Source: a virus (Duplodnaviria > Heunggongvirae > Uroviricota > Caudoviricetes). Taken from it: DNA of 24,011 nucleotides. The notes beneath the pieces are model-generated. The model saw nothing but the letters and a program-made list of their open reading frames with translations, was not told the origin of the DNA and ran no database searches. Numbering within the stretch: the stretch's first letter is position 1; each line of letters opens with the position of its first letter. The translations under genes and the position numbers were made by a program. Below are positions 1 to 19,863 of this stretch, one piece after another. The stretch spans positions 1-24,011 of IMG/VR virus record IMGVR_UViG_2744054854_000003; one strand, given 5' to 3'.

Positions 1-97
1 TGCTGCTCAGCTAAACAACAGACCGAGAAAGACACTGAAGTTCAAAACACCGAAAGAGATAATTGAAAGGGGTGTTGCATTGACAGATTGAATCTAC

Positions 98-433
98 AGT
101 AGCCTTTTTTAATATTTCATTTTCCATTTCAATACGTTGTAGCTTTTTCCTGAGCTCACGGATTTCAATTTGTTCCGGGGTAATGGGGGAGGCTTTTGGT
201 GTTTTTCCCTGCCGCTCATCACGTAATTGTTTCACCCATCGCGTCATTGTGGAAAGGCCGACATCCATAGCGCTGGCTGCATCTGCCACGGTGTAATTCT
301 GGTCAACGACCAGTTGAGCGGATTCGCGTTTAAACTCTGCGCTGAAATTTCTTTTTTTCATTATGGCACCTGTGTTGTTCTGAGGTGAGCATATCACCTC
401 TGTTCAGGTGGCCAAATTCAGTAAACCACTTCA
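98..433 (-). mobile_element. IS3-family (IS911-like) left-end fragment with the 5' part of orfA
   Basis: Minus-strand ORF reads [29 protein letters not shown]...EILKKAT, which I recognise as an IS911/IS3-group OrfA N-terminus. A terminal TGAAGTGG (reverse complement of 426-433) resembles an IS3-family inverted-repeat end. Protein similarity stops abruptly after KKAT near position 98, so the element is truncated. Confidence 0.6.
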
Positions 434-747
434 GAGGGAAACGTTCAAAAGCAACCGCCGGGAAAATGAAGGCTGAAGGGCAGAAAAAAGGTTATCCGGA
501 CATGAGTCTCGATAAAGCATGCGGTATTTATCACGGCATGCGAATTGAGCTTAAAGAACCAAATGGTAAAGCCCCGACGAAAGAGCAGATCGCCTGGATG
601 CGCAGGCTTAGAGAGGAAGGTTACTACGTCGTTCTTGCGTATGGTGCAGAACAAGCGATAACCGCCATCCTGGAATACATAAGCCTTAAAAAGGGTGAGG
701 CTATTGAGCATGTATTGAACGGCGACAAGTGGTTGTATGCTGCTTAA
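434..747 (+). pseudogene. VRR-NUC-like nuclease domain protein, 5' end replaced by the IS terminus
   Basis: ORF 385-747 contains a GYPD...IELKEPNGK...Q..W segment resembling the VRR-NUC (PD-(D/E)xK) core. The first 16 codons of the ORF lie inside the IS terminal repeat, so the native N-terminus is missing. Confidence 0.4.
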
Positions 748-752
748 AATAA

Positions 753-769
753 TAAATTAATTAGTGCAT
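753..769 (-). promoter_or_regulatory. C1 operator-like site (weaker match, TTAGTGCAT variant)
   Basis: Reverse complement ATGCACTAATTAATTTA, about 13 of 17 positions matching the P1 C1 operator consensus ATTGCTCTAATAAATTT (consensus from memory). Confidence 0.3.
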
Positions 770-813
770 ATGTGCTCTTTGATATAGCGCACATTAACAT
801 CGGGAGAATAATT

Positions 814-969
814 GTGTCATCCAAGGCTAATTATGAATCGCTGGCATCGATCATGCCGCGTAATGAACAGGAAGCAGATGCTGTAGTGGACCCGGTAATC
901 GCTGAAATGAATGCTCGCCTGGAGGCTGAATTTGCAGCTGAGAATGAACATACCACCCAGGGCGACTAG
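814..969 (+). CDS. Small hypothetical protein (about 51 aa)
   Basis: GTG at 814 preceded by GGGAG with about 8 nt spacing, in frame with track ORF 772-969. No recognisable domain. Confidence 0.3.
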   Translation: MSSKANYESLASIMPRNEQEADAVVDPVIAEMNARLEAEFAAENEHTTQGD

Positions 970-1573
970 GACTGTTTTTTGTGTCGGTAGCGGTCCGTCA
1001 CTCACTCGTGAGGACTGTGCTGCTATAGAAAAAACTGGCTGTTCAATCATCGCGGTTAACAATTCCTGGCAGATGTTCGATGACATTTATGCCTTATACG
1101 CCGGTGATTTGTCATGGTGGAAGCAATACGGATCCACCATACCGGGAGGGAGATTCCGCAAAGTGACAGCCAACCTGGCGGCGGCGAAATCATTTTCGTT
1201 GGAGTACAGGCGATATTGTGGACCGGCTGAAGGGGTTAATAGCGGCGCGCAGACTATCAGTCTGGCGGCTGAATCAGGGGCTGAAGTAGTTGTATTAGTC
1301 GGCTATGACTGTTCTCTGCAAAACGGCCTTCATTGGCATGGAGCACACCCTCAAGCCCTACGGAATCCTACGCAGGTGTCTATTTCAAAATGGCAACAGC
1401 AGTTCCTGGATACCCGCAAAAAACACGCAGATTTACATATTTTGAATGCAAGTAGGAGCAGTGCAATTCAATGTTTCCCAAGAATAAATTTAGAGGCAGT
1501 GATCGCGTTATTATCGTCGGCAGTGGCCCAAGCGCCGCAAACTTTGTTGCGCCGCGCGGAGTGCCGATTATAG
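944..1573 (+). CDS. Hypothetical protein, paralogue A of a tandem pair (GSGPS...IAVN...LVGxD motifs)
   Basis: Track ORF 911-1573 with a likely start at ATG 944 (MNIPPRATRTVFCVGSGPS). Shares an ordered motif set with the next gene. A Rossmann-like or DUF115/MptE-like fold is a tentative guess only. Confidence 0.5.
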   Translation: MNIPPRATRTVFCVGSGPSLTREDCAAIEKTGCSIIAVNNSWQMFDDIYALYAGDLSWWKQYGSTIPGGRFRKVTANLAAAKSFSLEYRRYCGPAEGVNSGAQTISLAAESGAEVVVLVGYDCSLQNGLHWHGAHPQALRNPTQVSISKWQQQFLDTRKKHADLHILNASRSSAIQCFPRINLEAVIALLSSAVAQAPQTLLRRAECRL

Positions 1574-2097
1574 CGGTCAATGGGGCCATCGACTGGCTGA
1601 ACCGCGCTTCTTATTTTTTCACACTTGATCCATCGCCAGACAATATGCGGCGCGTTGGTCGTGGCCGCCGTCGCCGTGGTGTTTGTTATTGCATGGCACT
1701 ACCCGATGTTAAAGAACGTGAAGTCAGAGATGGCGTTCTGTGCTTCCGTCGTGTGGCTGAACGCGGCACAGAGCCAAAAAATACGAATTCTCCCGAGTGG
1801 TGGGCGTGGCGCTGGTCCGCACATTTCGGCCTTTGCGAAGATGAGAATGAAATTTCCAGCGGCAATAGTGCATATGGTGCTCTGAACCTGGCTTTCCATA
1901 TCGGATTCAAACATGTAGCCCTTGTGGGCGTTGACGCTACGCAAGAACTACGCGTTCACTCCGGCGGCACGCCAAAAAATCTAAGTCACCTGCCTTTGTT
2001 ATTCCAGTCTGCGCGTGAACAGATTGACGTTGTTTCATGCGGGAAAATGGGAGGTATTCCGCAGATGACTCTTAAAGAATGGCTGAAGAATACATGA
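1471..2097 (+). CDS. Hypothetical protein, paralogue B of the tandem pair, with an Arg/Gly-rich insert
   Basis: ATG 1471 preceded by AGGAG with about 11 nt spacing. Motifs [18 protein letters not shown] are present, with an extra 34-residue stretch ([12 protein letters not shown]...) relative to paralogue A. Overlaps the end of paralogue A by 103 nt in a different frame. Confidence 0.5.
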
Positions 2098-2771
2098 TGG
2101 CACCCACAATTTATCACCGTATCGACGGTACCAAATACAGGAATGTCTGGGTTGTTGGTGATCTGCATGGTTGCTACACCAGACTGATGTCCGAACTCCA
2201 TCGTGTGGATTTTGACCCGGCGCAGGATTTACTGATATCGGTCGGCGACCTTATCGATCGCGGTACTGAAAATGTCGAATGTCTGGAACTATTGCAGATG
2301 CCCTGGTTCAGGGCAGTGATGGGGAACCATGAGCGGCTGATGATTGATGCGTTAAGTCCAGATGGCAACGTGAATAACTGGCTAATGAATGGCGGACAAT
2401 GGTTCTTCATGCTGGACACTGATCAGGAAATATTAGCCTGGGCGCTGGTGGAGCTGGTAAAGCGTCTGCCCTATATCATTGAGTTGAACACCGGGCAAGA
2501 AACTATCGTTATAGCCCATGCCGACTATCCGGATAATGAATACCAATTCGGTAAGGAGGTGCCGCTTTTCAACGTTGTCTGGGCGCGCGAGCGTATCAGT
2601 GATTCGATGGATGATATTGGTGGCGAAATTTCGGGCGCAGATCGTTTTATCTTTGGTCACACTCCGGTGAAAAGCCCGAAGACATTCTGGAATCAGCAGT
2701 ATATCGACACTGGTGCCGTATTTTGCGGAAACCTGACATTGATGAAAGTGAAAGGTGATGGTGCAGCATGA
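2094..2771 (+). CDS. ppp: Ser/Thr protein phosphatase, lambda-PPase-like metallophosphoesterase
   Basis: GDLHGC, GDLIDRG, GNHE and GHTP motifs, and strong resemblance to lambda phosphatase as I remember it ([15 protein letters not shown]...). Start 2094 taken as an ATGA overlap with the upstream stop; the track start is 2079. The symbol is by analogy to P1 ppp. Confidence 0.85.
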
Positions 2772-3469
2772 AGATTGCTTTAGTTTTTCGCTCTGGTGGT
2801 GACTATAACGCTTCCGATGTGCAGTGGCTGGTTAATCAACTGCCAAAAGGCTATGAAATTATTTGCCTGACAGACCTGAAGCGTTTACATGTACCTGGCG
2901 TCAAAGTTGTCCCATTGATCAACCAGTGGCAAAAGTGCCGTGGCTGGTGGGCGAAAATCGAGTTGTTCCGACCGGATATAACAGATGATCTGTTCTATCT
3001 GGATTTGGACACAGTTATTGCCGGTGATATACGCCCAATCCTTGAGAATCCACCAACCAGCTTCACCATGCTTAGGGATTTTTACCATCCACAATATCGT
3101 GGTAGCGGTGCCCTGTGGATACCAAATAGTGTAAAAGCGCATATCTGGAGTTCATTCTGGCAAGATCCGGAAGGTTGGATTTCTCGTTGTGTCACTACTG
3201 AGTGCTGGGGTGATCAGGGGTTCTTACGGAAGGTTATGGGCGATGATACACCAGCATTTCAGGATCTGTATCCAGGATGGTTTGTAAGTTACAAGGCCGA
3301 TGTTGTGGAACCTGGTTCAAAATATGCGAGCGCGCGTTACTCCAGGGGGAATGGGGCATTACCAAAGGACTGCCGAATAATCTTTTTCCACGGCAAACCG
3401 CGACCTCGCGAAGTGTCAGAGGATTGGCTTCCCCTTATTAGCTCGTTTTTTGAGCGAGAATCAGAATAA
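2768..3469 (+). CDS. Hypothetical protein (pmgQ position), possible glycosyltransferase-like DxD motif
   Basis: 233-aa ORF whose ATG overlaps the ppp stop (ATGA). Contains YLDLDTVI, reminiscent of a nucleotide-sugar transferase DxD motif; this is weak evidence. Confidence 0.55.
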
Positions 3470-3470
3470 T

Positions 3471-3536
3471 ATTGCTCTAATAATTCCATATTTTTAAAAC
3501 GTGATGTACACTCATCACGTTTTTTATTAGAGCAAT
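3471..3536. promoter_or_regulatory. Two inverted C1 operator matches flanking a hairpin
   Basis: ATTGCTCTAATAATTCC at 3471-3487 on the plus strand, and ATTGCTCTAATAAAAAA on the minus strand at 3520-3536. Between them sits a hairpin (AAAACGTGATG / CATCACGTTTT, 3496-3523) followed by a T-run. Confidence 0.6.
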
Positions 3537-3550
3537 CCAAAAGGTGCACT

Positions 3551-3769
3551 ATGTGGCCATTCCGACGGAAATATCACTACTGGCTGATCGCCTTTGTTAC
3601 GCCGACCGGCGGTATCAGGCATGTCATCACCAGGTATCGCAACAAGAGACTCACCTTAGCCAGAATTTTACAGGCTGCCATAGGTGAGGGACTGGATACA
3701 AATTGCGTAGTCCTTCCTCCTTCATACTTAGGAAAAATGACCGAAGCACAAGCTAATACGGAACTTTGA
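3551..3769 (+). CDS. Small hypothetical protein (72 aa)
   Basis: ATG preceded by AAGGTG; ends 1 nt before the next start. No domain recognised. Confidence 0.35.
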   Translation: MWPFRRKYHYWLIAFVTPTGGIRHVITRYRNKRLTLARILQAAIGEGLDTNCVVLPPSYLGKMTEAQANTEL

Positions 3770-3770
3770 A

Positions 3771-5033
3771 ATGAGCACTTCAGCACAAAACCAATCAATC
3801 GAAAATGTATCTATCCCTGATGTCCTGAATGCCGGTATCCCGGCCATTATCCAGAACATCCGGGCCGCGCAACGCCGCGTTAGTTGTGATGACCTCACAG
3901 CACGTTTTTTTGATAATGCGGTTCAGTCAGCGGAGATGCTTCACGCACAGCTTATTGATGTTTATAACGCAGAAGCTGATAGCCATAACTCCCTGGTAGA
4001 TGCAGCTGAAAATATGCAGTTGGATCTCGGTCTGAAGGGTAAAGAAATTGAAGAGCTTCAGCTGGAAATTGAACATTTGAAACGCCAGCAACAGGACGCG
4101 ATCGACGATGCGACGCATGACGCCAACCAGCGTGCTGATAATGCCGAACGTATAAGCATTGAGCTGGAAACAAAACTCAATGAAATGACCGCGATGGTTG
4201 AACTGCGGAACTCACAGATTTCAACGCTAAAATCTCAATATAAAGAGATCATGAAACTTGATCCTTTTAACCTTGAGAAACGCTATAACAAAGCTAAAAG
4301 CGAGCGACAGGAACTGCGTAAGCAGGTCGCTGACCTTAACCAACAGCTCAAAAAAACTATTAAAGATGCAAGCGAAGCGCGCGTGGCATTTGCTAATAAA
4401 AAAGCAGAGGTTACTGCGCTGGTTAATGAGAATGCCAAATTTGCGACGCTCAAGAAGGAAATGTATGGCATTACTGAGCGCCGTTTCCCTGCAAGCAAAC
4501 TTCATCCGACGTTAGGGCAAATCTCCTTCTTCCCGCGCCTCCTGGCTTATGGGATCTCATCGCCTAAAGAGTTCAATAACGAGCGTCCTTATATCGTTTC
4601 TAAGCTGGACTTTGCTTATCAGTTCTGCTGCGACATGGGCTATGCCATTGATATCCGGATCAACGAATGGCTGATGCCAAACTTCCAGCCGTTGGCCATT
4701 TTCCGCGAGTTCCAGCCGGAAGGTTGGGTAGAGTTCTTCCATGAATTGATCTGTAAAGAGATGGAAAGCCGCCGCCCGGAACTGGTCCGTCGAGTTGAGT
4801 GGGCGCAAGAGGTTATGTTGGCAGAGGCAGAGCTGCCGTTCGAACCGGAATTTATTGATAATCTGGCAGCTAAAGGGCTGCATACCCTGTTTGATGTGGT
4901 TACCCGCCGTCATGAGCAGTTGGTTGTCGAATTGGGTTTAGAGGAAACAGCGGCAAGAAGACTTCTCGATGTTTGCTATGCACGTAGCGATGCATGGGAA
5001 AAAGAGAACGGCGGCACTATTTACGTTCGCTGA
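3771..5033 (+). CDS. Hypothetical protein with a coiled-coil-rich N-terminal half (420 aa)
   Basis: Long ORF with heptad-like charged composition in residues about 60-230 (LQLEIEHLKRQQQ..., QELRKQVADLNQQLKK). The C-terminal half is unrecognised. Confidence 0.6.
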   Translation: MSTSAQNQSIENVSIPDVLNAGIPAIIQNIRAAQRRVSCDDLTARFFDNAVQSAEMLHAQLIDVYNAEADSHNSLVDAAENMQLDLGLKGKEIEELQLEIEHLKRQQQDAIDDATHDANQRADNAERISIELETKLNEMTAMVELRNSQISTLKSQYKEIMKLDPFNLEKRYNKAKSERQELRKQVADLNQQLKKTIKDASEARVAFANKKAEVTALVNENAKFATLKKEMYGITERRFPASKLHPTLGQISFFPRLLAYGISSPKEFNNERPYIVSKLDFAYQFCCDMGYAIDIRINEWLMPNFQPLAIFREFQPEGWVEFFHELICKEMESRRPELVRRVEWAQEVMLAEAELPFEPEFIDNLAAKGLHTLFDVVTRRHEQLVVELGLEETAARRLLDVCYARSDAWEKENGGTIYVR

Positions 5034-5105
5034 TAGTTACAGTGTCACTTTTAATGCTGGTGGAGTGCTCCCACCAGCATTTTTTTCGTCCAATGAGGAG
5101 GGCAT

Positions 5106-5612
5106 TTGAGTATTTTCAATAAACACGCACACCAGGAACGTCCGTACATCGTCATAGTAGATATTGATGGGACGATATCAGAGGCAACGGAAGACAGGCT
5201 GCATTTACTTCCACCACCTGGCAAAGGTGCATTAACAGAGCACTGGAACGAGTTTAACCTTGCCTGTGACACTGATGCTCCCATCACTCCAGTTATTGAT
5301 ATGGTGCGCCAGTTATTTAACGTTTACACGGTCTGGTTTGTAACCGGGCGCTGTGAGATCGCAAGGGATAAAACACGAGCCTGGCTGCGGAAGTACGTAA
5401 CAAACGGGGCTGAGCCTTTGCTATCTATGCGTCCTGCCACCGATGACAGAAATGACGGTCCAGCAAAGATTGATCTCCTGAAGAAAATTGGTCTAAGTAA
5501 AATTGCGTTCGCGCTGGAAGATAAGATTGAAGTGGCGCGTGTGTTCAGGAGTCATGGCGTACTTACATTAATGGTCAGGGAGTATGAAAATGCGCTTCTT
5601 CATCAACAATAA
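5106..5612 (+). CDS. HAD-superfamily phosphatase-like protein
   Basis: TTG start preceded by GAGGAG with 6 nt spacing. N-terminal VIVDIDGTIS matches the HAD DxDG(T) motif I; motif II-like VWFVTGR follows. Possibly equivalent to P1 pap, by position. Confidence 0.6.
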   Translation: MSIFNKHAHQERPYIVIVDIDGTISEATEDRLHLLPPPGKGALTEHWNEFNLACDTDAPITPVIDMVRQLFNVYTVWFVTGRCEIARDKTRAWLRKYVTNGAEPLLSMRPATDDRNDGPAKIDLLKKIGLSKIAFALEDKIEVARVFRSHGVLTLMVREYENALLHQQ

Positions 5613-5628
5613 TTGTTCTAATAAATCT
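5612..5628 (+). promoter_or_regulatory. C1 operator-like site
   Basis: ATTGTTCTAATAAATCT, 15 of 17 matches to the consensus. It overlaps a possible -35 TTGATT (5627-5632) with a -10-like TAAAAA 17 bp downstream. Confidence 0.5.
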
Positions 5629-5650
5629 TGATTTTTAAAACAGAGAAAGT

Positions 5651-5683
5651 AAAAATAAAAACATGCCGCAAGGCGCGGCATGT
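5651..5683 (-). terminator. Rho-independent terminator, effective on the minus strand (hsdR operon end)
   Basis: 8-bp GC-rich stem CATGCCGC / GCGGCATG with a 5-nt loop. On the minus strand it is followed by a long U-run (plus-strand AAAAATAAAAA at 5651-5661); the plus-strand side has only TTT. Confidence 0.6.
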
Positions 5684-5710
5684 TTCCAATCAATCACAGG
5701 AGCTGAAAAT

Positions 5711-5797
5711 ATGAACACGGCATTCAAAATCATTATGGCCGCGATCTATTTCTGGCTGTTCTCTATCACTTTTGACGGCATCGTCGCGCATGGGTAA
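5711..5797 (+). CDS. Candidate small hydrophobic peptide (28 aa, MNTAFKIIMAAIYFWLFSITFDGIVAHG)
   Basis: ATG at 5711 with AGGAG at 5698-5702 (8 nt spacing). A single predicted transmembrane-length hydrophobic stretch. Below the ORF-track size cutoff; unproven. Confidence 0.3.
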   Translation: MNTAFKIIMAAIYFWLFSITFDGIVAHG

Positions 5798-5876
5798 GGG
5801 GAGTATATTAGCCATTTGGAACCCCACGAGCTCTTGCGGGTTTAATTAAGAACCCGCAAGAAAAACACGAATTGGG

Positions 5877-8800
5877 CTATATTTTTCCGCCTACGCCTTT
5901 AAACTTCTCAATAAACGAGACGATTTTCTGGAAAACTGCCTGTTTTTTCGTTTTATATTGCGGATTCAACGGACTAAGTTTTGGTAATGTTTCGTTTAAT
6001 TCTGTGCCATTTTCGGTGGCGTATTCGCGTTTTAAAGACGTGCGAATATAGCGTTTTGCTGCATCTTCATTGAGATTTTCTTCTTTTATCAATGCTTCTG
6101 CTTCACGTTGCTGTTCGCGTTGAGCAAACGTAAAGAATGCCTCAATGATACTGGCTTTGTCTGGTAAATCATCCAGGTTCGTTTGCTGAATAAAATCGAC
6201 CACCAGGCCCTCTTTCGCCCGGTTCCCCAGGCTTGAACGAATTAAGCGTTTGACCTCTTCGATCATTTCGCCCTTGCCTTTATTTTGTCTGTTGTGTTCG
6301 AAAATCAGTCCAAGGATATAATCCAGGTTTATTTCCTGAGACTTCAGCAAATCGACCTCAAAAACCACGTCATCCCAGTCAGTGGTTGATTTTTCTTTTT
6401 TATCAGCTTCTTTCTCGCGGCGCTGCCAGTCGCGAATATCGTTATAGGCAGAACGATAATCCTGAATCTTGCGATCAGCAGGGAGACGAATTGTTTGCAA
6501 TTCAGCGAACTTTTCATCATCCACATAATGTTCTGCTTTGAATTTTTCTACCGCAACAGGATCGCTAAGATCGATTTGTTGCAGGGCTTTTAGCGTGGCA
6601 AATTCATCATAGTTTTGCAGGATGTTCTCGGCACGCAGGTATTCGCCAAACAGTTTAACGAAGTCTTTCTTCTCTTTTTCACTTTCAATACTGGTAGGGT
6701 CAGGGAACCGTTGTTCCAGTTCTGAAACTACTGTCATGAAGCCGCGTTTAGCTTCACCAGTAGCAGCATCAGTAAAGCCTTCCATATACTCTGTATAACT
6801 CTTTTCTAACACCACATTTTTGGTGTTTTTGTCACCAAACAGCGTTATGGCATCAATAGTTGAGCGTTCCAGATCCCGGAAAGTGACGATATTACCGAAG
6901 GTTTTAGTTGCATCATAAATACGGTTGGTGCGGGAAAATGCCTGCATCAGGCCGTGAAAACGCAAGTTTTTATCGACGAATAGCGTGTTCAATGTTGGAG
7001 CATCGAAGCCGGTTAAAAACATCCCCACGACAATTAGCAGATCGATATCCTGATTTTTAACCCGCTGGGCTAAATCACGATAGTAGTTCTGAAAACCGTT
7101 ACTGTCGGTGCTGAAGTTAGTTTTAAAATGGCTGTTATATTCACGAATTGCAGCGTCCAGAAACTCTTTAGCACTGCTGTCCATTGCGCTGGTATCAAAA
7201 GTTTCATCGGAAATTTCACCAATGGCATTTTGTTCTTCATTAGCGGCAAAGGAGAAGATTGTCGCAACACGCAGCGGTTTATAGGTAGCCGATTTATTAG
7301 CGGCTTCCTCTTGTAACCGTTTAAACGTCGCATAATAGGCTTTTGCAGCATCCACGCTGCTTACTGCCAACATAGCATTAAAACCTTTTGAGCCAGGGAA
7401 GGTACGGTGGGTTTTCTGGCGGAAATTATTCAGAATATATTGCGTGATTTCCTGAATACGCATGGGATGAAGAAACGCCTGCTGATTTTCAGCCGCACTT
7501 AGTTTTTTCTCGTCAGTTTCTGTCTCTAAAGACTTAAACTGTGGCCGCACATCGTTGTAGTCCACCTTGAATTTGAGCACTTTTTCGTCACGAATCGCAT
7601 CGGTAATTACATACGAATGCAATTCACGACCAAATACGCTGGCGGTTGTTTCTGAGCCTAAGGCGTTTTCCGGGAAAATAGGGGTGCCGGTAAAACCAAA
7701 CTGATAATAGCGTTTGAATTTCTTCTTCAGGTTTTTCTGCGCTTCTCCAAACTGGCTGCGGTGGCATTCATCAAATATAAACACCACTTGCTGATTATAT
7801 ACAGGCAGGTCGCTTTCTGCTTTCATCAGGTTATTGAGTTTCTGAATAGTAGTGACGATAATTTTGTTATCGTCCTTATCCAGATTTCGTTTAAGGCCTG
7901 CGGTATTTTCCGAGCCGTTGACGCTGTCTGGCGAAAAACGCTGATATTCCTTCATGGTCTGGTAATCGAGGTCTTTCCTGTCGACCACAAAGAAGACTTT
8001 ATCAATAAAGTCCAGCTCTGTTGCCAGACGCGCGGCTTTAAAGCTGGTGAGGGTTTTACCAGAACCGGTAGTGTGCCAGATATACCCACCGCTTTCCGGT
8101 TTTGACCAGTTCTTCGCTGTAAAGGAACTCTTAATTTTCCACAGAATGCGCTCGGTGGCAGCAATCTGGTACGGTCGCATCACCAGTAGTGTCTGACTAC
8201 TGTCAAACACGCTGTAGTTCACCAGAACATTCAGCAGAGTATGTTTCTGGAAAAAGGTGGCGGTAAAGTCTTTGAGGTCTTTAATCAGCGTGTTGTCTGA
8301 TTTCGCCCAGTTCATGGTGAAGTCAAAACTGTTTTTATCGCGCTTTGTCGTGTTGGCAAAATAACGGGTATCGGTGCCGTTGGAAATGACGAACAGCTGC
8401 AGATACTTAAACAGGGAATTTTCGCTGTTAAAACTCTCTTTACTGTAACGATGTATCTGGTTGAAAGCCTCACGAATCGCCACCCCGCGTTTTTTTAGTT
8501 CGATTTGCACCAGCGGTAAACCATTAACCAGGATCGTGACGTCATAACGGTTAGCATGAGAACCCGTCTGTTCAAACTGCTGGATAATCTGCACCTTATT
8601 GCGCATGAGATTCTTTTTATCTATCAAATAGATGTTCTCAAGTCGCCCGTCGTCAAAAATAAAGTCGCAGATATAGTCGATATGGATTTTACGGGTTTTA
8701 TCCAGAATACCATCGCTGGGGTTGTCCAGATACTGCTCCGTGAAGCGCCGCCACTCGCTGTCATTAAACATCACACCATTGAGGCTCTGAAGCTGTTCCC

Positions 8801-8993
8801 GAACATTGGACAGCATTGCCGACTGTGATTTTACGGAAATAAATTCATAACCCTGATTCCGCAGGTCCTGAATCAGTTCACGTTCCAGGTCCGATTCGCT
8901 CTGGTAGCTGTCGCTTGTTTGCTCAGCTTTGATGTACTTATCAAGGACGATAAAGTTATTGGATTCAGCAATGGTGTGTGTTTGATGAGTCAT
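5877..8993 (-). CDS. hsdR: Type I restriction enzyme R subunit (1038 aa)
   Basis: Walker A ([12 protein letters not shown]) and DEAD-type box ([12 protein letters not shown]) helicase motifs. The length matches EcoR124I HsdR as I recall it. Has its own upstream intergenic region of 121 bp. Confidence 0.9.
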
Positions 8994-9114
8994 AGCGCAT
9001 CCTTTGTGCCGCCTGGCAAGAGCCGGAAGGGCGTTAAGAGTGACTTCCGGCGCGTAAAAAATAGTCTATATACTGACCGGGTGTTAAGGTGGCCCGATCG
9101 GTAGCAATGGTCAA

Positions 9115-10317
9115 TTAATTACTGACAGTTTCAGGTTTCGGGAAACTGAAAAGTAAATCACGGTAGTATTCGTATTGTTTCTGGCGCAACTCGATTTCAC
9201 GCGGAAGGCCTTCGGTGATGGAGTTTGTCAGGTTGTAAAATTTATCCATCGTGGCGACGATATAAAGTTGTTCATCGTATGATGGGATAGGTATTTCAAA
9301 TGCTCTCAACGATTTTAAACCTAAGTTTTTAATAGTTGAACCTGTTTTTTGATTTTCAAAATACTGTTTTGCGTAATTGGTTTGCAGGAAATAGAAAAGA
9401 TATCTAGTGTGGAGTTCAGGTGATTTAATTTTAAAATAGGCCACAGACTTACCGAGTACGATCTTCTCATTATTGTAAAAGGAAACATTTCCAATTGTGC
9501 CATTAATTGACAGGAAAACAGTATTTATTGGGTCAAAATGAATTCCGTGTTTTTTAAACATAGAATCATTAACCTTTTTTGTGTTATCGTTAAATGATAT
9601 TTTTTGATAGCCTAAATTGTTTCCATTGATAAAGAAATAATCACCGTTGGCGTCATATTCTGGAGTACCATGCAAACCGTCTCCAATTACACATAGCTCT
9701 CCTAATTTCAGACGTTTAACATCGTGGGCACCAAAACTAAATAACCGGTCGCGATAGTAGTTGTACTGTTTTTTACGCATGTTAAGCTCAGCGGTAAGCT
9801 CAGCGGTAAGTGCAGTAAATTTGTCCAGAATCCGAACGATTTCAGACTGGATGGCAAGGGATTTTTCCGGATTATCCGGGCAGGGGATTGGTACAGGTAT
9901 CTCAATTAATTGTCCTTTAGTTAATTTTGCCCTTCCTCCCCCGGTAAGGAAGGGAAGGAAATTAACGATGCATAAATAATGATATAGAAATCTAGAATGA
10001 ACTCTTTCTTTTCCTCGTACGACATGAACATGGTTGTTTGCCCAGAATTTACCAGTTGCATATTGAATTGAATAATTTTCTAAACTAGCCGAGCCATCTT
10101 CTGCAATTAAGACATATTCACCATCGTGGGTATATCCATCCACATAGTCTTGAATGTTGTTAGCACCATAATAGGGCGTCTCGCCTGCAATGCGCAAAGA
10201 GGCTTTTACTGGCTTTCTTCCATTATTCGCTATTTCGAAGAGTGAAGTATCACCAAGATTTCTCCACTCAACTTCAACCCCATCCAGCAATTTTTCCAGA
10301 TAACTTAACTCGCTCAT
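9115..10317 (-). CDS. hsdS: Type I R-M specificity subunit (400 aa), type IC-like
   Basis: Central conserved region with a TAELTAEL repeat, and the duplicated YYRD(R/L)LFSF motif at mid-protein and C-terminus, as in EcoR124-family HsdS. Its start overlaps the hsdM stop. Confidence 0.9.
9784..9816 (-). repeat. 12-bp tandem repeat (2 copies plus a degenerate third) encoding TAEL-TAEL in hsdS
   Basis: AAGCTCAGCGGT occurs twice (9784-9795 and 9796-9807), followed by AAGTGCAGT. The minus-strand translation is [11 protein letters not shown]. Confidence 0.85.
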
Positions 10318-11876
10318 TTCTGCACCTCGCAGCCTTCAATTTCAGCCACAATCGCATCAATATCTTTACGCAACAGGTCGATTTTGCTGACCGTGGTTTT
10401 CAGCTCTGCGTTCAACTCAGCAATATCGATAATTTCGCGGTTATCTTTCGCTTCCACATAGCTGCTCACCGACAGGTTATAGTCATTAGCGACAACGGTC
10501 TCAAACGCGACAGATTTCGCCAGATGAGCAACATCTTCCTTGCTGGCAAATACCTGCATAATCTGTTCGATATGGGCATCGGTCAGGGTATTGTTGTTAG
10601 TTTCTTTTTTAAACAGCTCGCTGGCATCAATAAACTGAACTTTGGTATCCGTTTTATGTTTAGACAGCACCAGAATGTTTACGGCAATAGTGGTGCCAAA
10701 GAACAGATTCGGTGCCAGTGAAATCACGGTTTCGACATAGTTATTGTCGACCAGATACTGACGGATTTTCTGCTCTGCGCCGCCACGGTAAAAAATACCC
10801 GGGAAGCAGACAATCGCAGCACGACCTTTGGCAGAAAGATAGTTCAGCGCATGTAGTACAAAGGCGAAGTCAGCTTTTGATTTGGGGGCCAGAACGCCAG
10901 CAGGGGCAAAACGTTCATCGTTAATCAGCGTCGGGTCATCACTGCCAATCCATTTCACCGAATATGGCGGGTTAGAAACGATGGCATCAAACGGTTTTTC
11001 ATCTCTGAAGTGCGGCTCAGTCAGCGTATTGCCCAGCTTGATATCAAACTTGTCGTAGTTGATGTTGTGCAAAAACATGTTCATACGCGCCAGGTTATAG
11101 GTCGTATGGTTGATCTCCTGACCAAAAAAGCCTTCTTCGATGATATGGTCATCAAACTGCTTTTTCGCCTGTAACAACAGCGAACCGGAACCTGCGGCTG
11201 GGTCGTAGATTTTGTTAACGTGGGTCTGCCCGTGCATAGCCAGTTGTGCAATCAGCTTAGAGACATGCTGCGGTGTAAAAAACTCGCCGCCTGACTTACC
11301 AGCATTCGCCGCATAGTTAGAAATCAGGAACTCATAGGCATCGCCGAACAGGTCAATCTGATGTTCGTTGAAGTCACCAAGTTTTAACCCTTCAACCCCT
11401 TTCAGAACCGCAGCCAGGCGGGCATTTTTATCCTTAACGGTGTTACCCAGGCGGTTACTGGTGGTATCGAAATCAGCAAACAAACCTTTGATGTCAGCTT
11501 CTGAAGGGTAACCGTAAGCAGAACTTTCGATAGCAACGAAGATACTGTTTAAATCTGCATTCAGTCTGTCATTGGTATTTGCTTTCGCAGCTACGTTGCA
11601 GAAAAGCTGACTTGGGTAGATGAAGTAGCCTTTAGTTTTGATGGCATCGTCTTTAATGTCATCAGTAATTACGCTGTCATCCAGTTTCGCATAACAGATA
11701 CTGTCATCACCGGCTTCAATATAGCTGGAAAAATTTTCGCTGATAAAACGGTAGAAAAGTGCGCCCAGAACGTATTGCTTAAAATCCCATCCATCGACCG
11801 AACCCCTGACATCGTTAGCAATTTGCCAGATTTGACGATGAAGCTCTGCACGTTGTTGAATACTTGTCATTTTCAT
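10314..11876 (-). CDS. hsdM: Type I R-M N6-adenine DNA methyltransferase subunit (520 aa)
   Basis: NPPY motif (SNPPYSVKW), AdoMet-binding glycine-rich motif ([10 protein letters not shown]), and a typical HsdM N-terminus. The length matches EcoR124I HsdM as recalled. Confidence 0.9.
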
Positions 11877-12015
11877 CCACTTATTTCAGGCTTATGTAAT
11901 TGGATGTGATTCTACAGCAACTTGGATGCTTTAGCAGTTCGGACATTAGGCTACGAATGACCTGCCTAGAGGTTTGTTAAGCCGCAAAGTGCTGGTGCTT
12001 TATGCCTGTGAAGTT

Positions 12016-12050
12016 TATAATTGTGTACACATAACGAGTACACGAGGTGT
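12016..12050 (+). promoter_or_regulatory. phd-doc promoter and operator region
   Basis: Perfect TATAAT at 12016-12021, immediately followed by the palindrome TGTGTACACA (12022-12031) and a second GTACAC-containing half-site. SD GAGGTG precedes the phd ATG. Confidence 0.6.
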
Positions 12051-12052
12051 TT

Positions 12053-12274
12053 ATGCAATCCATTAACTTCCGTACCGCGCGCGGCAACCTTTCTGAAGTG
12101 CTCAACAATGTTGAAGCCGGGGAAGAGGTTGAAATCACCCGCAGAGGCCGTGAGCCAGCAGTAATTGTCAGCAAGGCTACTTTCGAAGCCTACAAAAAAG
12201 CGGCGCTGGATGCTGAATTTGCATCCCTGTTTGACACCCTGGACTCCACCAACAAGGAACTGGTTAACCGATAA
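12053..12274 (+). CDS. phd: Antitoxin Phd (73 aa)
   Basis: [56 protein letters not shown]... recognised as P1 Phd. Its stop overlaps the doc start (TAATGA). Confidence 0.9.
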
Positions 12275-12654
12275 TGAGGCATATATCACCGGAAGAACTT
12301 ATTGCGCTTCATGATGCGAATATAAGCCGCTACGGCGGCCTGCCGGGAATGTCAGATCCGGGCAGGGCAGAGGCCATTATCGGGAGAGTCCAGGCCAGAG
12401 TTGTGTACGAAGAGATCACCGACCTTTTCGAAGTCTCCGCCACCTACCTGGTGGCTACTGCGAGAGGGCATATATTCAATGATGCCAATAAGCGTACCGC
12501 GCTAAACAGTGCGCTGTTATTTCTACGCCGTAACGGGGTGCAGGTATTTGATTCACCTGAACTGGCAGACCTTACTGTAGGCGCTGCGACTGGCGAGATA
12601 TCTGTATCTTCTGTCGCCGACACGTTACGTAGATTGTATGGTTCTGCGGAGTAG
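12274..12654 (+). CDS. doc: Toxin Doc (126 aa), Fic-fold kinase
   Basis: Fic motif HIFNDANKR is present. Length and position immediately after phd match P1 doc. Confidence 0.9.
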
Positions 12655-12658
12655 ATTA

Positions 12659-12838
12659 ATGGCACGCAAATACAACAAATTGTCCCGTGAAGCGTTAAAG
12701 ATGCTTCTTGATGGCGTGAGTCGCCGCAAGGTAAAGCAATACCTGGTTGGTAAGCAAATTGGAGTCAGGACCGCTATTGCTGTGTTATGCCGTCAGGAAA
12801 TGGTTGCGCTTAAACAGAGAATGCCGGGCAGCAGATAA
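12659..12838 (+). CDS. Small hypothetical protein following doc (about 59 aa, basic)
   Basis: ATG 12659 is in frame within track ORF 12638-12838 (MARKYNKLSREALKMLLDG...). Possibly pdcA, by position only. Confidence 0.4.
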   Translation: MARKYNKLSREALKMLLDGVSRRKVKQYLVGKQIGVRTAIAVLCRQEMVALKQRMPGSR

Positions 12839-12865
12839 AGCCCAATCAGTGATGAAAGGTGTGAT

Positions 12866-13909
12866 GTGAAAGCCGTAATTACTCCCTTTGTACAGAAAGA
12901 GCTTGGCCTCGCCACGTTCAAAGTGGATCAGGAGGTCAGAAAGCTGGTGGAGGCTGGCCGTAAATTTATTATGGAGCCGGTGCCGCGTGAGTTAATCGAG
13001 CACATGGAAGACGGCCTCGTTGTTACCGAGCAAACCATGGCAACAAATGAGGCGTTGCAGCCGTTTTTTAACAGCGATGAACTGTTTCGCCGTATTGGTG
13101 GAATTGACGCGCTGGTGGCGTGGTTGCGTAGGAAAGAGGGTCAATGCCAGGCCGCAGATCGTAGTTGGTGTGACAACCATATTGTCCACGCTGAACGAGA
13201 CAATAGCGCGGTGTTGTTGTGCTGGCATCACGATAACCATTATCGGATGCGTGGTTTTAATGAGCTGAAAGAAACGCTGCACAATAATCGCGTTAACTGG
13301 ATACTGGATGTCGCCCGTCAGGAAATGGGCCTTTCAAATAGCCATGATTTAAGTATTCAGGAGCTGTGCTGGTGGGCTTTCATGCGCAACATGATGCACC
13401 TGATGCCGGAAGAAGTCTGCCGCATATCAATAAATAAGATGAAGGCTACTCCGCAGGATAGCGGACCTCTGAAAGAGGCGGATATTCGCCCGTATGACGA
13501 TCGCGCTACAGCATATGTTCAGATGATGGAAGAACGCGCCGCGCCGATGCGTGCAAAAGTATGCCCTGTGGATGTTGACTCCGACCCTGGCATGGCGCAT
13601 TTCAAAATACCAAAACTGCAATCGCTAAAATTACCTGAGTACATGGACTTTGTTGCTTCCCGTCCATGCTGTGGGTGTGGAGCTGCGGGAGCTGGCGCTC
13701 ACATTACGCCTTATATCGTTCGTCATAGTCGATTATGCGCGCATGACATTTACGCAATTCCTCTGTGCCAGTCATGCCAGCGTGATATTGAGCGTGACCG
13801 CGATAATTGGGAGAAGACGCACGGTAGGTTGGCGATGCATCAACGATTGTTCTTTGATTACGCGCTTGGAGTGGGCGTTATCACAAGTCATTCGTCGAGT
13901 GTTAGATAA
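12866..13909 (+). CDS. pdcB: Hypothetical Cys/His-rich protein (347 aa), pdcB position
   Basis: GTG start preceded by AAAGGTG. Contains CDNHIVHAE...CWHHDNH and a C-terminal PCCGCG...CAHD...CQSCQ cluster suggesting a zinc-binding or HNH-like module. The symbol is by position in the P1 order (phd-doc-pdcA-pdcB-lpa) as recalled. Confidence 0.55.
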
Positions 13910-13910
13910 A

Positions 13911-13927
13911 ATTGCTCTAATGTATTG
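13911..13927 (+). promoter_or_regulatory. C1 operator upstream of lpa
   Basis: ATTGCTCTAATGTATTG; the first 11 positions match the consensus exactly. Located 70 bp upstream of the lpa ORF. Confidence 0.6.
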
Positions 13928-13997
13928 CTATTTCTTTAATCGAGGGTATTATATTCCACGTTGATTAGTTGACATGGGCTAATCAGTAGGTGACAGG

Positions 13998-14450
13998 ATG
14001 TTACTTAACTGGCAGGGACGCCACTTCATGGAAATAAATCACTCACGAATAACATCGTACGAGATTGCGGATTACATGATCCGCACTAAATCTCTTCTAT
14101 CAGCGAAAGAACTCGCAGCAATTCTTGAAAAGGAATACCCGCATCTGGATGTCGATAAGCGCGATGTTTATCTGCGCTTAAAGGCTATCGCTGTGTCTAA
14201 GTATTCGTCTGTTTTGATTGATGACAGTACACGCCCACGTAGATTTCAGATCCACTCTCTGAATCCTGAATTCTTTCGCCGTAGCCGCGCTCCGCGCCGG
14301 TTTGATGAAAAACTCCAGAATGAACTCTATATGACGCAGGACGAAAAGGAACGCCGGGAGCACCAGCCTTGGGTGATGGCGCGTCAACTTTTCAATAAGG
14401 TGGTCCGTCAGCACCGTCATTACGGTAATGCCACATCCGCACGTATCTGA
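13998..14450 (+). CDS. lpa: Late promoter activator Lpa (150 aa)
   Basis: Position immediately upstream of pacA, a C1 operator upstream, and size consistent with P1 Lpa. The start may instead be the internal ATG at 14028. Confidence 0.65.
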   Translation: MLLNWQGRHFMEINHSRITSYEIADYMIRTKSLLSAKELAAILEKEYPHLDVDKRDVYLRLKAIAVSKYSSVLIDDSTRPRRFQIHSLNPEFFRRSRAPRRFDEKLQNELYMTQDEKERREHQPWVMARQLFNKVVRQHRHYGNATSARI

Positions 14451-14535
14451 TTGATTGCTTGCCCGTTCCGGGCCTTTTGACATGTGACTTTCGTTACCCT
14501 CGCGTCAAAAAGAGTTTTTACGAAAGGAAGCATAA

Positions 14536-15729
14536 GTGACCTGGGACGATCACAAGAAGAATTTTGCTCGCCTGGCGCGAGATGGTGGTTACACCATCGC
14601 ACAGTATGCCGCCGAGTTTAATCTTAACCCTAATACCGCACGTCGTTATCTCCGTGCCTTCAAAGAAGACACCAGGACTGCGGACAGCCGCAAGCCAAAT
14701 AAGCCAGTCAGGAAGCCACTAAAAAGCATGATCATTGATCACTCTAATGATCAACATGCAGGTGATCATATTGCGGCTGAAATAGCGGAAAAACAGAGAG
14801 TTAATGCCGTTGTCAGTGCCGCAGTCGAGAATGCGAAGCGCCAAAATAAGCGCATAAATGATCGTTCGGATGATCATGACGTGATCAACCGCGCCCACCG
14901 GACCTTACGTGATCGCCTGGAACGCGACACCCTGGATGATGATGGTGAACGCTTTGAATTCGAAGCTGGCGATTACCTGATAGATAACGTTGAAGCGCGG
15001 AAGGCCGCGCGCGCTATGTTGCGTCGGTCCGGGGCCGATGTTCTGGAAACCACTCTTCTTGAAAAGTCTCTTTCTCATCTCCTTATGCTGGAGAACGCCA
15101 TGGATACGTGTATTCGCCTGGTGCAGGAAATGCGCGATCAGCAAAAAGACGATGATGAAGGTACTCCGCCTGAATACCGTATCGCGAGCATGCTAAACAG
15201 CTGTTCCGCGCAGATAAGCAGTCTGATCAACACCATTTACAGCATCCGGAATAACTATCGAAAAGAAAGCCGGGAGGCGGAAAAGCACGCTTTGTCTATG
15301 GGGCAAGCTGGCATTGTTAAGCTGGCATACGAACGAAAGCGTGAAAATAACTGGTCAGTGCTGGAAGCAGCTGAATTCATCGAGGCGCATGGCGGGAAAG
15401 TGCCGCCCCTGATGCTGGAGCAAATCAAAGCAGATCTGCGTGCTCCTAAGACAAATACCGATGATGAGGAAAGGCAAACTGCCGTCGGTGGCCCTTCTCT
15501 TGAAGATCTGGACAAAGTTGCGCGAGAACGGGCCGCCAACCGCCGCGCCGATGCTGCATTGTGGATTGAGCAACGTAGGGAAGAAATCGCCGATATCGTT
15601 GATACAGGCGGTTATGGAGATGTTGATACTGAAGGTGTATCAAACGAACCATGGCTGGAACAAGACCTGGACGAAGACGAGGAGGAAGACGAAGAAGTTA
15701 CCCGCAAGCTATACGGGGATGATGATTAA
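14536..15729 (+). CDS. pacA: Terminase small subunit PacA (397 aa), contains the pac site
   Basis: GTG start with AAAGGAAG upstream. 397 aa as in P1 PacA. The GATC-hexamer pac site lies inside it, and the acidic C-terminal tail overlaps the pacB start. Confidence 0.85.
14729..14887 (+). other. pac packaging site: two clusters of GATC hexamers (4 plus 3)
   Basis: GATC at 14730, 14737, 14749 and 14764 (left cluster) and at 14860, 14872 and 14883 (right cluster), each mostly within a TGATCA/G hexamer. This matches the known 4+3 architecture of the P1 pac site. Confidence 0.85.
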
Positions 15730-17213: not shown

Positions 17214-17219
17214 AAAAAA

Positions 17220-17236
17220 CTTGCTCTAATAAATTG
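17220..17236 (+). promoter_or_regulatory. C1 operator at the start of the antirepressor module
   Basis: CTTGCTCTAATAAATTG, 15 of 17 matches. It is followed by TTGACT at 17244-17249. Confidence 0.6.
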
Positions 17237-17366
17237 CGTTTTTTGACTGCCGATGTTACATTGAACCTGACCTCTTGCGCCTTGAGGCATTTTCGGTTTA
17301 TGCTTATCAGGCACCTCATTAAAACGGGTGCCGGGATTGGCCTCCCGCTTAAGTCTAAGGCGATAC

Positions 17367-17389
17367 AGACGCCGCTCGCGTCTTTTTTT
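17367..17389 (+). terminator. Intrinsic terminator or attenuator hairpin with a 7-T run
   Basis: Stem AGACGC / GCGTCT with a 5-nt loop, followed by TTTTTTT (17383-17389). Lies in the leader between the operator and the 74-aa gene. Confidence 0.5.
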
Positions 17390-17554
17390 GTATCGGCGTA
17401 CACGCACACCTCTACAATGGTGGGCTGTATGGGGCTACCTTCGGGTAGGCTGGTTACCTTGGACGCCAGTAAGGCCAACTCCGTACAGTCCACCGCCAGC
17501 AAGATTGGTCTCTTCTGCGGTGGTTACATACCAACGTCTAAGGAGGCTGCCATT

Positions 17555-17776
17555 ATGGCTACTATCCCTACCCCAACTCATCCTGAATTTATCTGGCGCT
17601 TTTACTCCTGCCAGAAACGTCACTATCACTTCGTTATCGCAACAACAGAAGATGAGGCACGTTCTCAGCTTCCGGATGCTCCCTGCATTTTCTCCGCACG
17701 CTTTTCTACTGACTCGCGCAATTCTCTCAGTTACTGGTGCCTCCCTGTTAACGCTTCTGTTCAGGAGGGGCTATGA
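17555..17776 (+). CDS. Small protein (74 aa) translationally coupled to the antirepressor gene (icd-like position)
   Basis: Strong SD AAGGAGG 8 nt upstream of ATG 17555. Its stop overlaps the ATG at 17773 (ATGA). An in-frame upstream ATG at 17418 is possible. Confidence 0.5.
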   Translation: MATIPTPTHPEFIWRFYSCQKRHYHFVIATTEDEARSQLPDAPCIFSARFSTDSRNSLSYWCLPVNASVQEGL

Positions 17777-18885: not shown

Positions 18886-18917
18886 TGGAAGAATGCCCGG
18901 TTGATGCCGGGCATAAT

Positions 18918-19769: not shown

Positions 19770-19863
19770 TGATCCTCCTCCAGAATTGACATGGTCAATA
19801 ACGCCCGGCTGAGAAAACCGGTCATTACTGACCTATATTATAGAGGGATCAAACAAAAATAAT

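What the first reader, a model, noticed from the sequence alone, without database searches (positions are those of the whole stretch)
98..747. IS3-family fragment abutting a VRR-NUC nuclease gene; the IS itself is truncated at 98
The IS911-like terminal repeat ends at 433 and its orfA reads leftwards. OrfA similarity stops abruptly after about 100 codons at position 98, so only about 336 bp of the element remain. On the other side, the VRR-NUC-like ORF has lost its native N-terminus and now starts inside the IS end. This marks a past insertion and deletion at the edge of the accessory region, and the fusion ORF could still be expressed from IS-derived signals.
Basis: partly seen in the sequence, partly recalled or inferred. 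Interest (0 to 1): 0.4.

Follow-up and report, generated by a model that had tools for sequence, protein, structure and literature searches.

The report
Nested IS scar truncating P1 pmgM
This is an ordinary scar in a phage-P1-derived E. coli plasmid: an ISEc52 (IS911-like) element cut off the front of the P1 nuclease gene pmgM and was then itself split by an IS30 insertion. The same junction occurs in dozens of sequenced plasmids and is already annotated there as pseudogenes.

Summary
The coordinates hold, with corrections. Window 99-433 is the left-end 335 bp of ISEc52, an IS3-family relative of IS911. It carries the terminal repeat ending at 433 and orfA reading leftwards, with 87 of 100 codons.

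P1 homology starts exactly at 434. Positions 434-747 are the last 104 codons of P1 pmgM (192 aa, VRR-NUC), so 88 codons are missing. ORF 385-747 is an in-frame read-in from the IS end.

The IS is not truncated at 98. Positions 1-98 are the right end of IS30, including its 26-bp terminal repeat. In a plasmid 99.99% identical over window 1-13784, ISEc52 resumes beyond IS30 with a 2-bp duplication. It runs another 429 bp until a group II intron interrupts it.

The same IS911-type::IS30 split site is annotated in E. coli K-12 (IS911A::IS30A) and occurs in over 1000 complete E. coli genomes in each IS30 orientation.

The P1 genes left of the breakpoint are absent from the sister plasmid, so loss of P1 DNA is supported.

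The pmgM remnant lacks helix α1 and strand β1 of the nuclease fold, and I found no IS-derived outward promoter. It is most likely a pseudogene.

Low interest; already known.

The parts
1..98 (+). 3' end of IS30. The transposase C-terminal 29 codons plus stop occupy nt 2-91, and the 26-bp right terminal inverted repeat occupies 73-98, ending ...GAATCTACA.
   Evidence: 100% identical to K-12 IS30A positions 1124-1221. Translation gives [29 protein letters not shown]. IRR sequence compared. PGAP annotates 'IS30-like element IS30 family transposase' at this place in sister plasmids.
99..100 (.). The GT dinucleotide (AC on the ISEc52 strand) that IS30 duplicated on insertion. This is the right-hand copy.
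   Evidence: In NZ_CP081699.1 the two ISEc52 pieces flanking IS30 overlap by exactly these 2 bp. K-12 IS911A::IS30A shows the same AC duplication. A 2-bp duplication is characteristic of IS30 (PMC9333248).
99..433 (-). Left-end (IRL-proximal) 335 bp of ISEc52, an IS3-family relative of IS911. IRL is about 398-433, the 5' leader is 362-397, and orfA' is 361-99 (87 codons plus 2 nt).
   Evidence: 99.7% identical to full-length ISEc52 in phage SEN22. PGAP name. Pfam HTH_Tnp_1 E 2.6e-14. OrfA' is identical to ISEc52 OrfA residues 1-87 of 100.
11..361 (-). Chimeric open frame: OrfA residues 1-87, then 29 codons read across the junction from the antisense strand of the IS30 end, then a stop.
   Evidence: PGAP annotates the equivalent as 'transposase, incomplete, missing C-terminus'. 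It is the counterpart of K-12 pseudogene insN fragment 1.
434..747 (+). 3' remnant of P1 pmgM (VRR-NUC): second base of codon 89 through the stop codon at 745-747. It retains the PD...ExK part of the nuclease motif.
   Evidence: P1 homology starts at 434. P1 annotation. 310/314 nt and residues 90-192 identical. Pfam VRR_NUC matches profile positions 55-115 only, 22.9 bits against a cut-off of 23.8. PGAP: 'VRR-NUC domain-containing protein, incomplete, missing N-terminus'.
385..747 (+). Mechanical fusion ORF of 120 aa: 16 codons from the antisense ISEc52 leader/IRL, one junction codon (R instead of G89), then PmgM 90-192.
   Evidence: No promoter-like site upstream on this strand.
715..770 (+). 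Retained P1 control region for the downstream pmgN-ppp-pmgQ genes: predicted promoter PpmgN (715-741 by coordinate transfer) and C1 operator Oppp (754-770).
   Evidence: Transferred from the P1 annotation through the alignment. The operator is 16/17 identical to P1. The only promoter-like hit in window 1-1000 lies here, at 722-750.

Best explanation
This is a nested insertion-sequence scar at the boundary between the P1-derived backbone and accessory DNA of a defective P1-like (IncY) plasmid.

Proposed order of events:
1. An ISEc52 element (IS3 family, IS911-like) became joined by its left end to the GAG at P1 79115-79117, inside codon 89-90 of pmgM.
2. The P1 DNA on the other side was lost or replaced by accessory DNA. 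This includes the pmgM 5' end with its promoters and the C1 operator, pmgL, and the baseplate and tail genes.
3. IS30 inserted into ISEc52 orfA after codon 87 and duplicated 2 bp. This killed the IS and produced the apparent 'truncation at 98'.
4. Outside the window, the same ISEc52 copy also carries a group II intron in orfB.

The order of steps 2-4 is inferred, not shown.

Consequences:
- pmgM' has lost its promoters, its start codon, helix α1 (which carries the first Glu of the E-PD-ExK site) and strand β1. It is a pseudogene.
- The downstream pmgN-ppp-pmgQ genes keep their own predicted promoter and C1 operator.
- ORF 385-747 is an accidental read-in.
For: Shown:
- Identity and exact ends of the three pieces.
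- In NZ_CP081699.1, which is 99.99% identical over window 1-13784, ISEc52 resumes beyond a complete 1221-bp IS30 with a 2-bp overlap, continues 429 bp, and then meets a group II intron with ltrA.
- K-12 annotates the same 335 bp / IS30 / 429 bp split as IS911A::IS30A, followed by the reverse-transcriptase remnant ykfC.
- The IS30/ISEc52 junction is present in 1217 of 5426 complete E. coli genomes in the window's orientation. It is present in 1028 of 5426 in the opposite orientation. Both forms occur in one plasmid.
- IS30 prefers hot-spot targets and makes 2-bp duplications (PMC9333248).
- Intron E.c.I4 homes into IS3-like transposase genes, including that of IS911 (PMC3522654).
- The P1 segment left of 79115 is absent from the sister plasmid.
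- The ISEc52|pmgM junction is 100% identical in 52 PLSDB plasmids and occurs in phage phi456.
- PmgM 77-180 aligns to the solved VRR-Nuc protein 4qbl residues 26-139 (E 3.5e-17). The fold is αβββαβα with an E-PD-ExK site (PMC4103454). The break falls just after β1.
- PHROG 824 conservation starts at PmgM residue 54.
- PGAP calls both remnants pseudogenes.
Against: - The window holds only 98 bp of IS30. The continuation of ISEc52 beyond it is inferred from sister plasmids, not seen in this molecule.
- No plasmid in PLSDB keeps the pmgM 5' part joined to the other ISEc52 end at this site. The original simple insertion and its 3-bp duplication are therefore not demonstrated. The junction could instead have arisen directly from an IS-mediated deletion or cointegrate event.
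- At least 6 other IncY plasmids have the same pmgM nucleotide joined to the opposite (IRR) end of the same mosaic. A single simple history does not explain this.
- Loss of PmgM function is inferred from sequence and fold, not tested.
Confidence: 0.9

Rival explanations
1. One reading: the IS3-family element was cut back to about 336 bp by a deletion ending at 98, and nothing of it lies beyond.
For: Within the window, OrfA similarity does stop at 98/99. The window cannot show what lies beyond its first base.
Against: Positions 73-98 are a perfect IS30 right terminal repeat and 1-98 is 100% IS30. In all 25 listed plasmids that cover window 1-1500 the same IS30 end is present. In the closest one, the rest of ISEc52 follows IS30 with a 2-bp duplication. 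The same split site is annotated in K-12.
Confidence: 0.04
2. The fusion ORF 385-747 is a functional, expressed, shortened VRR-NUC protein. It would be driven by IS-derived signals or by read-through from the IS30 transposase gene on the same strand.
For: The frame is open for 120 codons, and the pmgM-derived residues are identical to P1 PmgM. The PD and ExK motif residues are kept. No terminator-like site was found on the + strand between IS30 and the ORF, so read-through is not excluded.
Against: No promoter-like site was found on the + strand upstream, and there is no Shine-Dalgarno sequence before GTG 385 or ATG 466. The ORF lacks α1, with the first catalytic Glu, and β1 of a four-stranded sheet that forms the dimer interface. 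The perfect amino-acid identity rests on only 4 nucleotide differences, so it says nothing about selection. In phi456 the remnant is further split by IS1. PGAP calls it a pseudogene.
Confidence: 0.05
3. The junctions are assembly artefacts, that is, contigs mis-joined across repeated IS copies.
For: IS30 and ISEc52/IS911 are multi-copy repeats and commonly cause mis-assemblies.
Against: The ISEc52|pmgM junction is identical in 52 independently sequenced complete plasmids from five species. The IS30|ISEc52 junction occurs in more than 1200 complete genomes. Both junctions fall exactly at IS termini and IS30 has the expected 2-bp duplication.
Confidence: 0.01

Closest known systems
IS911A::IS30A in the CP4-6 cryptic prophage of E. 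coli K-12 MG1655 (insN fragments, insI1, then eyeA and ykfC)
   Same: The IS911-type element is split at the same dinucleotide into a 335-bp left piece and a 429-bp piece by a 1221-bp IS30 with a 2-bp AC duplication. A group II intron reverse-transcriptase remnant follows. The IS pieces are 98% identical to the window.
   Different: IS30 lies in the opposite orientation relative to the IS911-type pieces. The outer flank of IRL is perR in K-12 and pmgM codon 89 here.
ISEc52 (IS3 family), full-length 1250-bp copy in Salmonella phage SEN22 with a 3-bp ATT duplication
   Same: 99.7% identity over 335 bp, the same terminal repeat, and OrfA residues 1-87 identical.
   Different: Here only the first 335 bp are contiguous. 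orfA is interrupted, and no orfB, no right end and no target duplication lie within the window.
Phage P1 pmgM (NC_005856 78850-79428; VRR-NUC domain protein of unknown role, listed as 'putative morphogenetic function')
   Same: Window 434-747 equals pmgM codons 89-192 (310/314 nt), followed by pmgN, pmgO, pmgP, ppp and pmgQ in P1 order.
   Different: Codons 1-88, pmgL, the late and sigma-70 promoters and operator O26 upstream are missing. A 16-codon IS-derived leader is fused in frame.
Group II intron E.c.I4, which homes into IS3-like transposase genes (IS629, IS911, ISEc16, ISEc31)
   Same: In sister plasmids an intron with ltrA sits in orfB of the same ISEc52 copy, as described for E.c.I4 (PMC3522654).
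   Different: It lies outside the window. I did not test whether the intron is E.c.I4 itself. In NZ_CP081699.1 its far exon belongs to a different IS3-family transposase.

Membership tests
IS3 family / ISEc52 (IS911-like) | Terminal inverted repeat beginning 5'-TG...; the end sequence matches the reference element | tested here: met
   The minus strand from 433 reads TGAAGTGGTTTACTGAATTTGGCCACC. This is identical to IRL of the full-length SEN22 copy, and 25/36 positions pair with its IRR.
IS3 family / ISEc52 (IS911-like) | orfA encoding an HTH protein, followed by a frameshifted orfB with a DDE transposase | tested here: not met
   orfA' matches HTH_Tnp_1 (E 2.6e-14) but stops at codon 87 of 100. 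No orfB is in the window. This is a fragment of a member, not a complete element.
IS3 family / ISEc52 (IS911-like) | 3-bp (or 3-4 bp) direct target duplication at both ends | tested here: inconclusive
   Only one end is present. No plasmid with the complementary pmgM 5' junction was found. In the E. marmotae plasmid, where both ends exist, the flanks differ (TAC versus GAG).
IS3 family / ISEc52 (IS911-like) | Assignment by ISfinder (95% or more nucleotide identity to the ISEc52 reference) | not testable with these tools
   ISfinder is not available. Proxy evidence: 99.7% identity to copies that PGAP labels 'IS3-like element ISEc52 family transposase', against 93% to IS911 of Sf6.
IS30 | 26-bp terminal inverted repeat, transposase C-terminus, and 2-bp target duplication | tested here: met
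   Window 1-98 is 100% identical to K-12 IS30A. The IRR is at 73-98. The 2-bp duplication is seen in the sister plasmid and in K-12. The rest of the element lies outside the window.
VRR-NUC (PF08774) nucleases | Complete αβββαβα fold with the E-PD-ExK active site | tested here: not met
   PD (GYPD) and ExK (IELK) are retained. The break falls after β1 (HATPNG|G), so α1 with the first Glu and β1 are lost. Pfam score is 22.9 bits against a cut-off of 23.8, covering profile positions 55-115 only. Full-length P1 PmgM matches the solved VRR-Nuc 4qbl at E 3.5e-17.
P1 pmgM orthologue | Sequence identity and conserved position upstream of pmgN-pmgO-pmgP-ppp-pmgQ | tested here: met
   310/314 nt identical. 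phrog_2363 positions 89-192 match at E 1.4e-66. The window is colinear with P1-like plasmids from 434 to 23813.

The most novel reading that the evidence does not exclude
The same pmgM nucleotide (window 434) is joined to the left end of the nested ISEc52::IS30::intron mosaic in 52 plasmids. It is joined to the right end of the same mosaic in at least 6 other IncY plasmids. This could mean either of two things. The dead mosaic of about 4.8 kb may still be moved in trans. Alternatively, ISEc52-type elements may target this spot repeatedly, or flip in place, through a pseudo-terminal-repeat 3 bp from the joint (14/26 matches to IRR). The pseudo-repeat would resemble the end-targeted insertion described for IS911.
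Probability: 0.15. Interest if true: 0.3.

Novelty: already known. Interest (0 to 1): 0.08.

Why it matters
It matters mainly for annotation:
- The 'truncated IS' is really an IS30-interrupted ISEc52.
- The 120-codon ORF should be labelled a pmgM pseudogene, not a nuclease gene.
- The junction is a convenient lineage marker for a widespread group of defective P1-derived plasmids carrying large accessory regions.

The nested insertions at fixed sites also illustrate how site-specific mobile elements build the same mosaic repeatedly. IS30 sits at one dinucleotide of IS911-type orfA in both orientations, and a group II intron sits in orfB. This can mislead attempts to infer common descent. None of this opens a new question.

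Tried and rejected
- **Ancestral simple insertion.** I built synthetic junction queries of the pmgM 5' part plus GAG joined to the ISEc52 IRR end and to the IRL end. Neither junction exists in PLSDB. The only full-coverage hits were independent insertions at other pmgM positions: TUM9975 near the 3' end, and pTB91P2 43 bp downstream with a 4-bp overlap.
- **In-place flipping of the mosaic.** I queried the E. marmotae left flank joined to the IRR end. No record matched.
- **Pseudo-terminal-repeat in pmgM as a targeting signal.** There are 14/26 matches to IRR starting 3 bp from the joint. Matches this good occur at 0.2% of positions in the window, and I tried many offsets, so I treat it as weak.
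- **Palindromy of the IS30 target in ISEc52.** Only 12 of 30 symmetric positions match. I could not retrieve the published IS30 hot-spot consensus, so the fit to it is untested.
- **Outward promoter in the IS end.** None was found.
- **Remaining 488 bp of ISEc52 in NZ_CP081699.1.** It is absent. The far side of the intron is the C-terminus of a different IS3-family transposase, about 40% amino-acid identity at the equivalent position.

Full report
**What is in the sequence**

The window is a P1-like (Punavirus, IncY) plasmid segment. Positions 434-23813 are colinear with intact P1-type phage-plasmids of 94-99 kb. Positions 434-1500 match phage P1 itself at 97.6%, beginning exactly at P1 79115. 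The first 433 bases are not P1.

Positions 99-433 match a full-length 1250-bp IS in Salmonella phage SEN22 at 99.7% over 335 bp. That copy has perfect IS3-type ends (TGAAGTGG...) and a 3-bp ATT duplication. NCBI's PGAP names identical copies 'IS3-like element ISEc52'. Identity to IS911 of Shigella phage Sf6 is 93%.

The terminal repeat ends at 433. orfA starts at ATG 361 on the minus strand and runs to 99. It matches Pfam HTH_Tnp_1 (E 2.6e-14). Its 87 codons are identical to the first 87 of the 100-codon ISEc52 OrfA. 'About 100 codons' should read 87 codons.

**What stops the IS at 98**

Positions 1-98 are 100% identical to the last 98 bp of K-12 IS30A. They encode the transposase C-terminus (...[15 protein letters not shown], stop at 89-91) and end with the 26-bp right terminal repeat at 73-98. 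The break is therefore an IS30 insertion, not a deletion end-point.

Plasmid NZ_CP081699.1 (E. coli CT02) is 99.99% identical to window 1-13784. In it a complete 1221-bp IS30 is followed by ISEc52 positions 334-762 (429 bp). That piece overlaps the 335-bp piece by exactly 2 bp. This is the duplication IS30 makes (PMC9333248). The 429-bp piece ends at a group II intron carrying ltrA.

The K-12 reference genome annotates the same architecture in prophage CP4-6. IS911A (335 bp), IS30A (1221 bp) and IS911A-1 (429 bp) are followed by the reverse-transcriptase remnant ykfC. Those pieces are 98% identical to the plasmid copy, but IS30 lies in the opposite orientation.

I searched 120-bp junction queries against 5426 complete E. 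coli genomes. The window-type junction occurs in 1217 genomes and the K-12-type in 1028. Plasmid CT02 carries both forms, the second in a 90%-identical IS911 copy.

IS30 is known to prefer hot-spot sequences. Intron E.c.I4 is known to home into specific positions of IS3-like transposase genes, including that of IS911 (PMC3522654). The same mosaic can therefore form repeatedly. I infer, but did not test, that this dinucleotide is an IS30 hot spot.

**The pmgM side**

P1 pmgM is 579 bp (192 aa) at 78850-79428. Window 434 corresponds to the second base of codon 89. Eighty-eight codons are missing, and residues 90-192 are identical to P1 PmgM (310/314 nt). The alignment shows the window and P1 diverging immediately left of GAGGGAAACG.

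Relatives do not start at this point. The PHROG family of PmgM is 192 positions long, and a broader family (phrog_824) is conserved from PmgM residue 54.

Full-length PmgM aligns to the solved Psychrobacter VRR-Nuc protein (4qbl) from PmgM residue 77 to 180 (E 3.5e-17). That family has an αβββαβα fold, an E-PD-ExK metal site and a β-sheet dimer interface, and it cleaves four-way junctions (PMC4103454). The break falls right after the β1 motif (HATPNG|G). The remnant keeps PD and ExK but lacks α1, which carries the first Glu, and β1.

Also lost are the native promoters (LPpmgL, P1pmgL, P2pmgL) and operator O26.

ORF 385-747 begins at a GTG in the antisense ISEc52 leader. It has no Shine-Dalgarno sequence and no promoter-like site upstream. 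The end present is IRL. From my own knowledge of IS911, not tested here, IRL's promoter elements face inward.

PGAP annotates the equivalent stretch as an incomplete VRR-NUC pseudogene, and orfA' as an incomplete transposase. I conclude that pmgM' is a pseudogene and the fusion ORF is accidental. This is an inference from sequence and fold.

The predicted PpmgN promoter and C1 operator Oppp for the downstream genes are retained at 715-770.

**Insertion and deletion**

In CT02 the 4 kb of P1 left of the breakpoint is absent from the entire 145-kb record. That stretch comprises the pmgM 5' end, pmgL and genes 26, 25, 7, 24 and 6. In its place, beyond the IS mosaic, lie tens of kilobases of accessory metabolic, arsenic-resistance and IS DNA.

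It also implies a defective prophage. For the window's own replicon this rests on similarity to the sister plasmid.

I could not reconstruct a clean pre-deletion state. No PLSDB plasmid has the pmgM 5' part joined to either ISEc52 end at this site. In CT02 the far side of the intron is not ISEc52 but the C-terminus of another IS3-family transposase, followed by a truncated helicase gene. Whether the junction arose by simple insertion followed by deletion, or directly by an IS-mediated rearrangement, remains open.

**Distribution**

The 120-bp ISEc52|pmgM junction is 100% identical in 52 PLSDB plasmids. These come from E. coli, E. fergusonii, E. albertii, Shigella flexneri and Salmonella enterica. 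It is also present in phage phi456. There a deletion fuses IS30 interior to ISEc52 position 242, and IS1 further splits the pmgM remnant. The junction is thus a lineage marker, not a local novelty.

pmgM has been hit independently elsewhere. An IS911-like element lies 43 bp downstream in pTB91P2 and an ISEc52-like element lies near the 3' end in TUM9975. This is consistent with pmgM being dispensable for plasmid maintenance, which is an inference.

**One loose end**

At least six other IncY plasmids, for example E. marmotae NZ_CP099352.1, join the same pmgM nucleotide to the opposite (IRR) end of a complete mosaic: IRL-335 / IS30 / 429 / intron / 488-IRR. The left flank there is a mobI(A/C) region, and there is no target duplication.

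Homologous recombination between IS copies cannot swap which IS end is attached to a given flank. The likely causes are therefore two transposase-mediated events at the same 3-bp target, or an in-place flip.

A pseudo-terminal-repeat 3 bp from the joint (14/26 matches to IRR) is only weakly above background. A search for the flipped counterpart found nothing. I leave this unexplained.

**Verdict**

The IS3-type fragment, the lost pmgM N-terminus and the loss of P1 DNA all hold. The 'truncation at 98' is really an IS30 insertion at a site used in over a thousand E. coli genomes, including K-12. The suggested expression of the fusion ORF has no support. This is known biology that is already annotated in public records, so interest is low.

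Noticed in passing
window 434; L013 3617-4027 and L014 7209-8801 (NZ_CP099352.1): At least 6 other IncY plasmids join the same pmgM nucleotide to the opposite (IRR) end of a complete ISEc52::IS30::group II intron mosaic. The left flank is a mobI(A/C) region and there is no target duplication (TAC versus GAG). Both IS ends therefore occur flush against the same base in different lineages.
   Followed up: partly
window 98/99; L010 2041/2042 (K-12); NZ_CP081699.1 69695/69696: IS30 sits at the same AC dinucleotide of IS911-type orfA in both orientations. The window-type orientation occurs in 1217 of 5426 complete E. coli genomes and the K-12-type in 1028 of 5426. Both forms occur within one plasmid. 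This suggests a natural IS30 hot spot.
   Followed up: partly
L011 6381-6857 (NZ_CP081699.1 104380-104856), outside the window: Beyond the group II intron, the downstream exon is the C-terminus of a different IS3-family transposase. It has about 40% amino-acid identity to ISEc52 OrfB at the equivalent position. This looks like recombination between two intron copies sitting in different IS hosts.
   Followed up: partly
L012 (E. coli 720632 chromosome 239116-248235): The same 429 / IS30 / 335 mosaic, with the intron further split by IS421, lies in a chromosome. Its IRL end is next to TIR-domain protein genes. This is a third kind of flank besides perR (K-12) and pmgM.
   Followed up: no
window 471-480 equivalent; L008 6240-7006 (phage phi456): In phi456 the pmgM remnant is additionally interrupted by IS1. 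IS30 interior is fused to ISEc52 position 242, which is a later deletion in the same lineage.
   Followed up: yes
L015 3664-4909 (pTB91P2) and L009 (TUM9975): Independent IS911/ISEc52-type insertions at two other positions in pmgM of otherwise intact P1-like plasmids. pmgM appears to tolerate disruption.
   Followed up: partly
window 23813-24011: Colinearity with intact P1-like plasmids ends at 23813, and identity with NZ_CP081699.1 ends at 23913. This is a second backbone/accessory junction at the right edge of the window. I did not identify it.
   Followed up: no
window 13784-20208: The window departs from its closest relative NZ_CP081699.1 at 13784, where that plasmid carries IS1X2. It matches that plasmid at only 89% over 13989-17213 (lpa/pacA/pacB region). 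This suggests a recombinant backbone.
   Followed up: no
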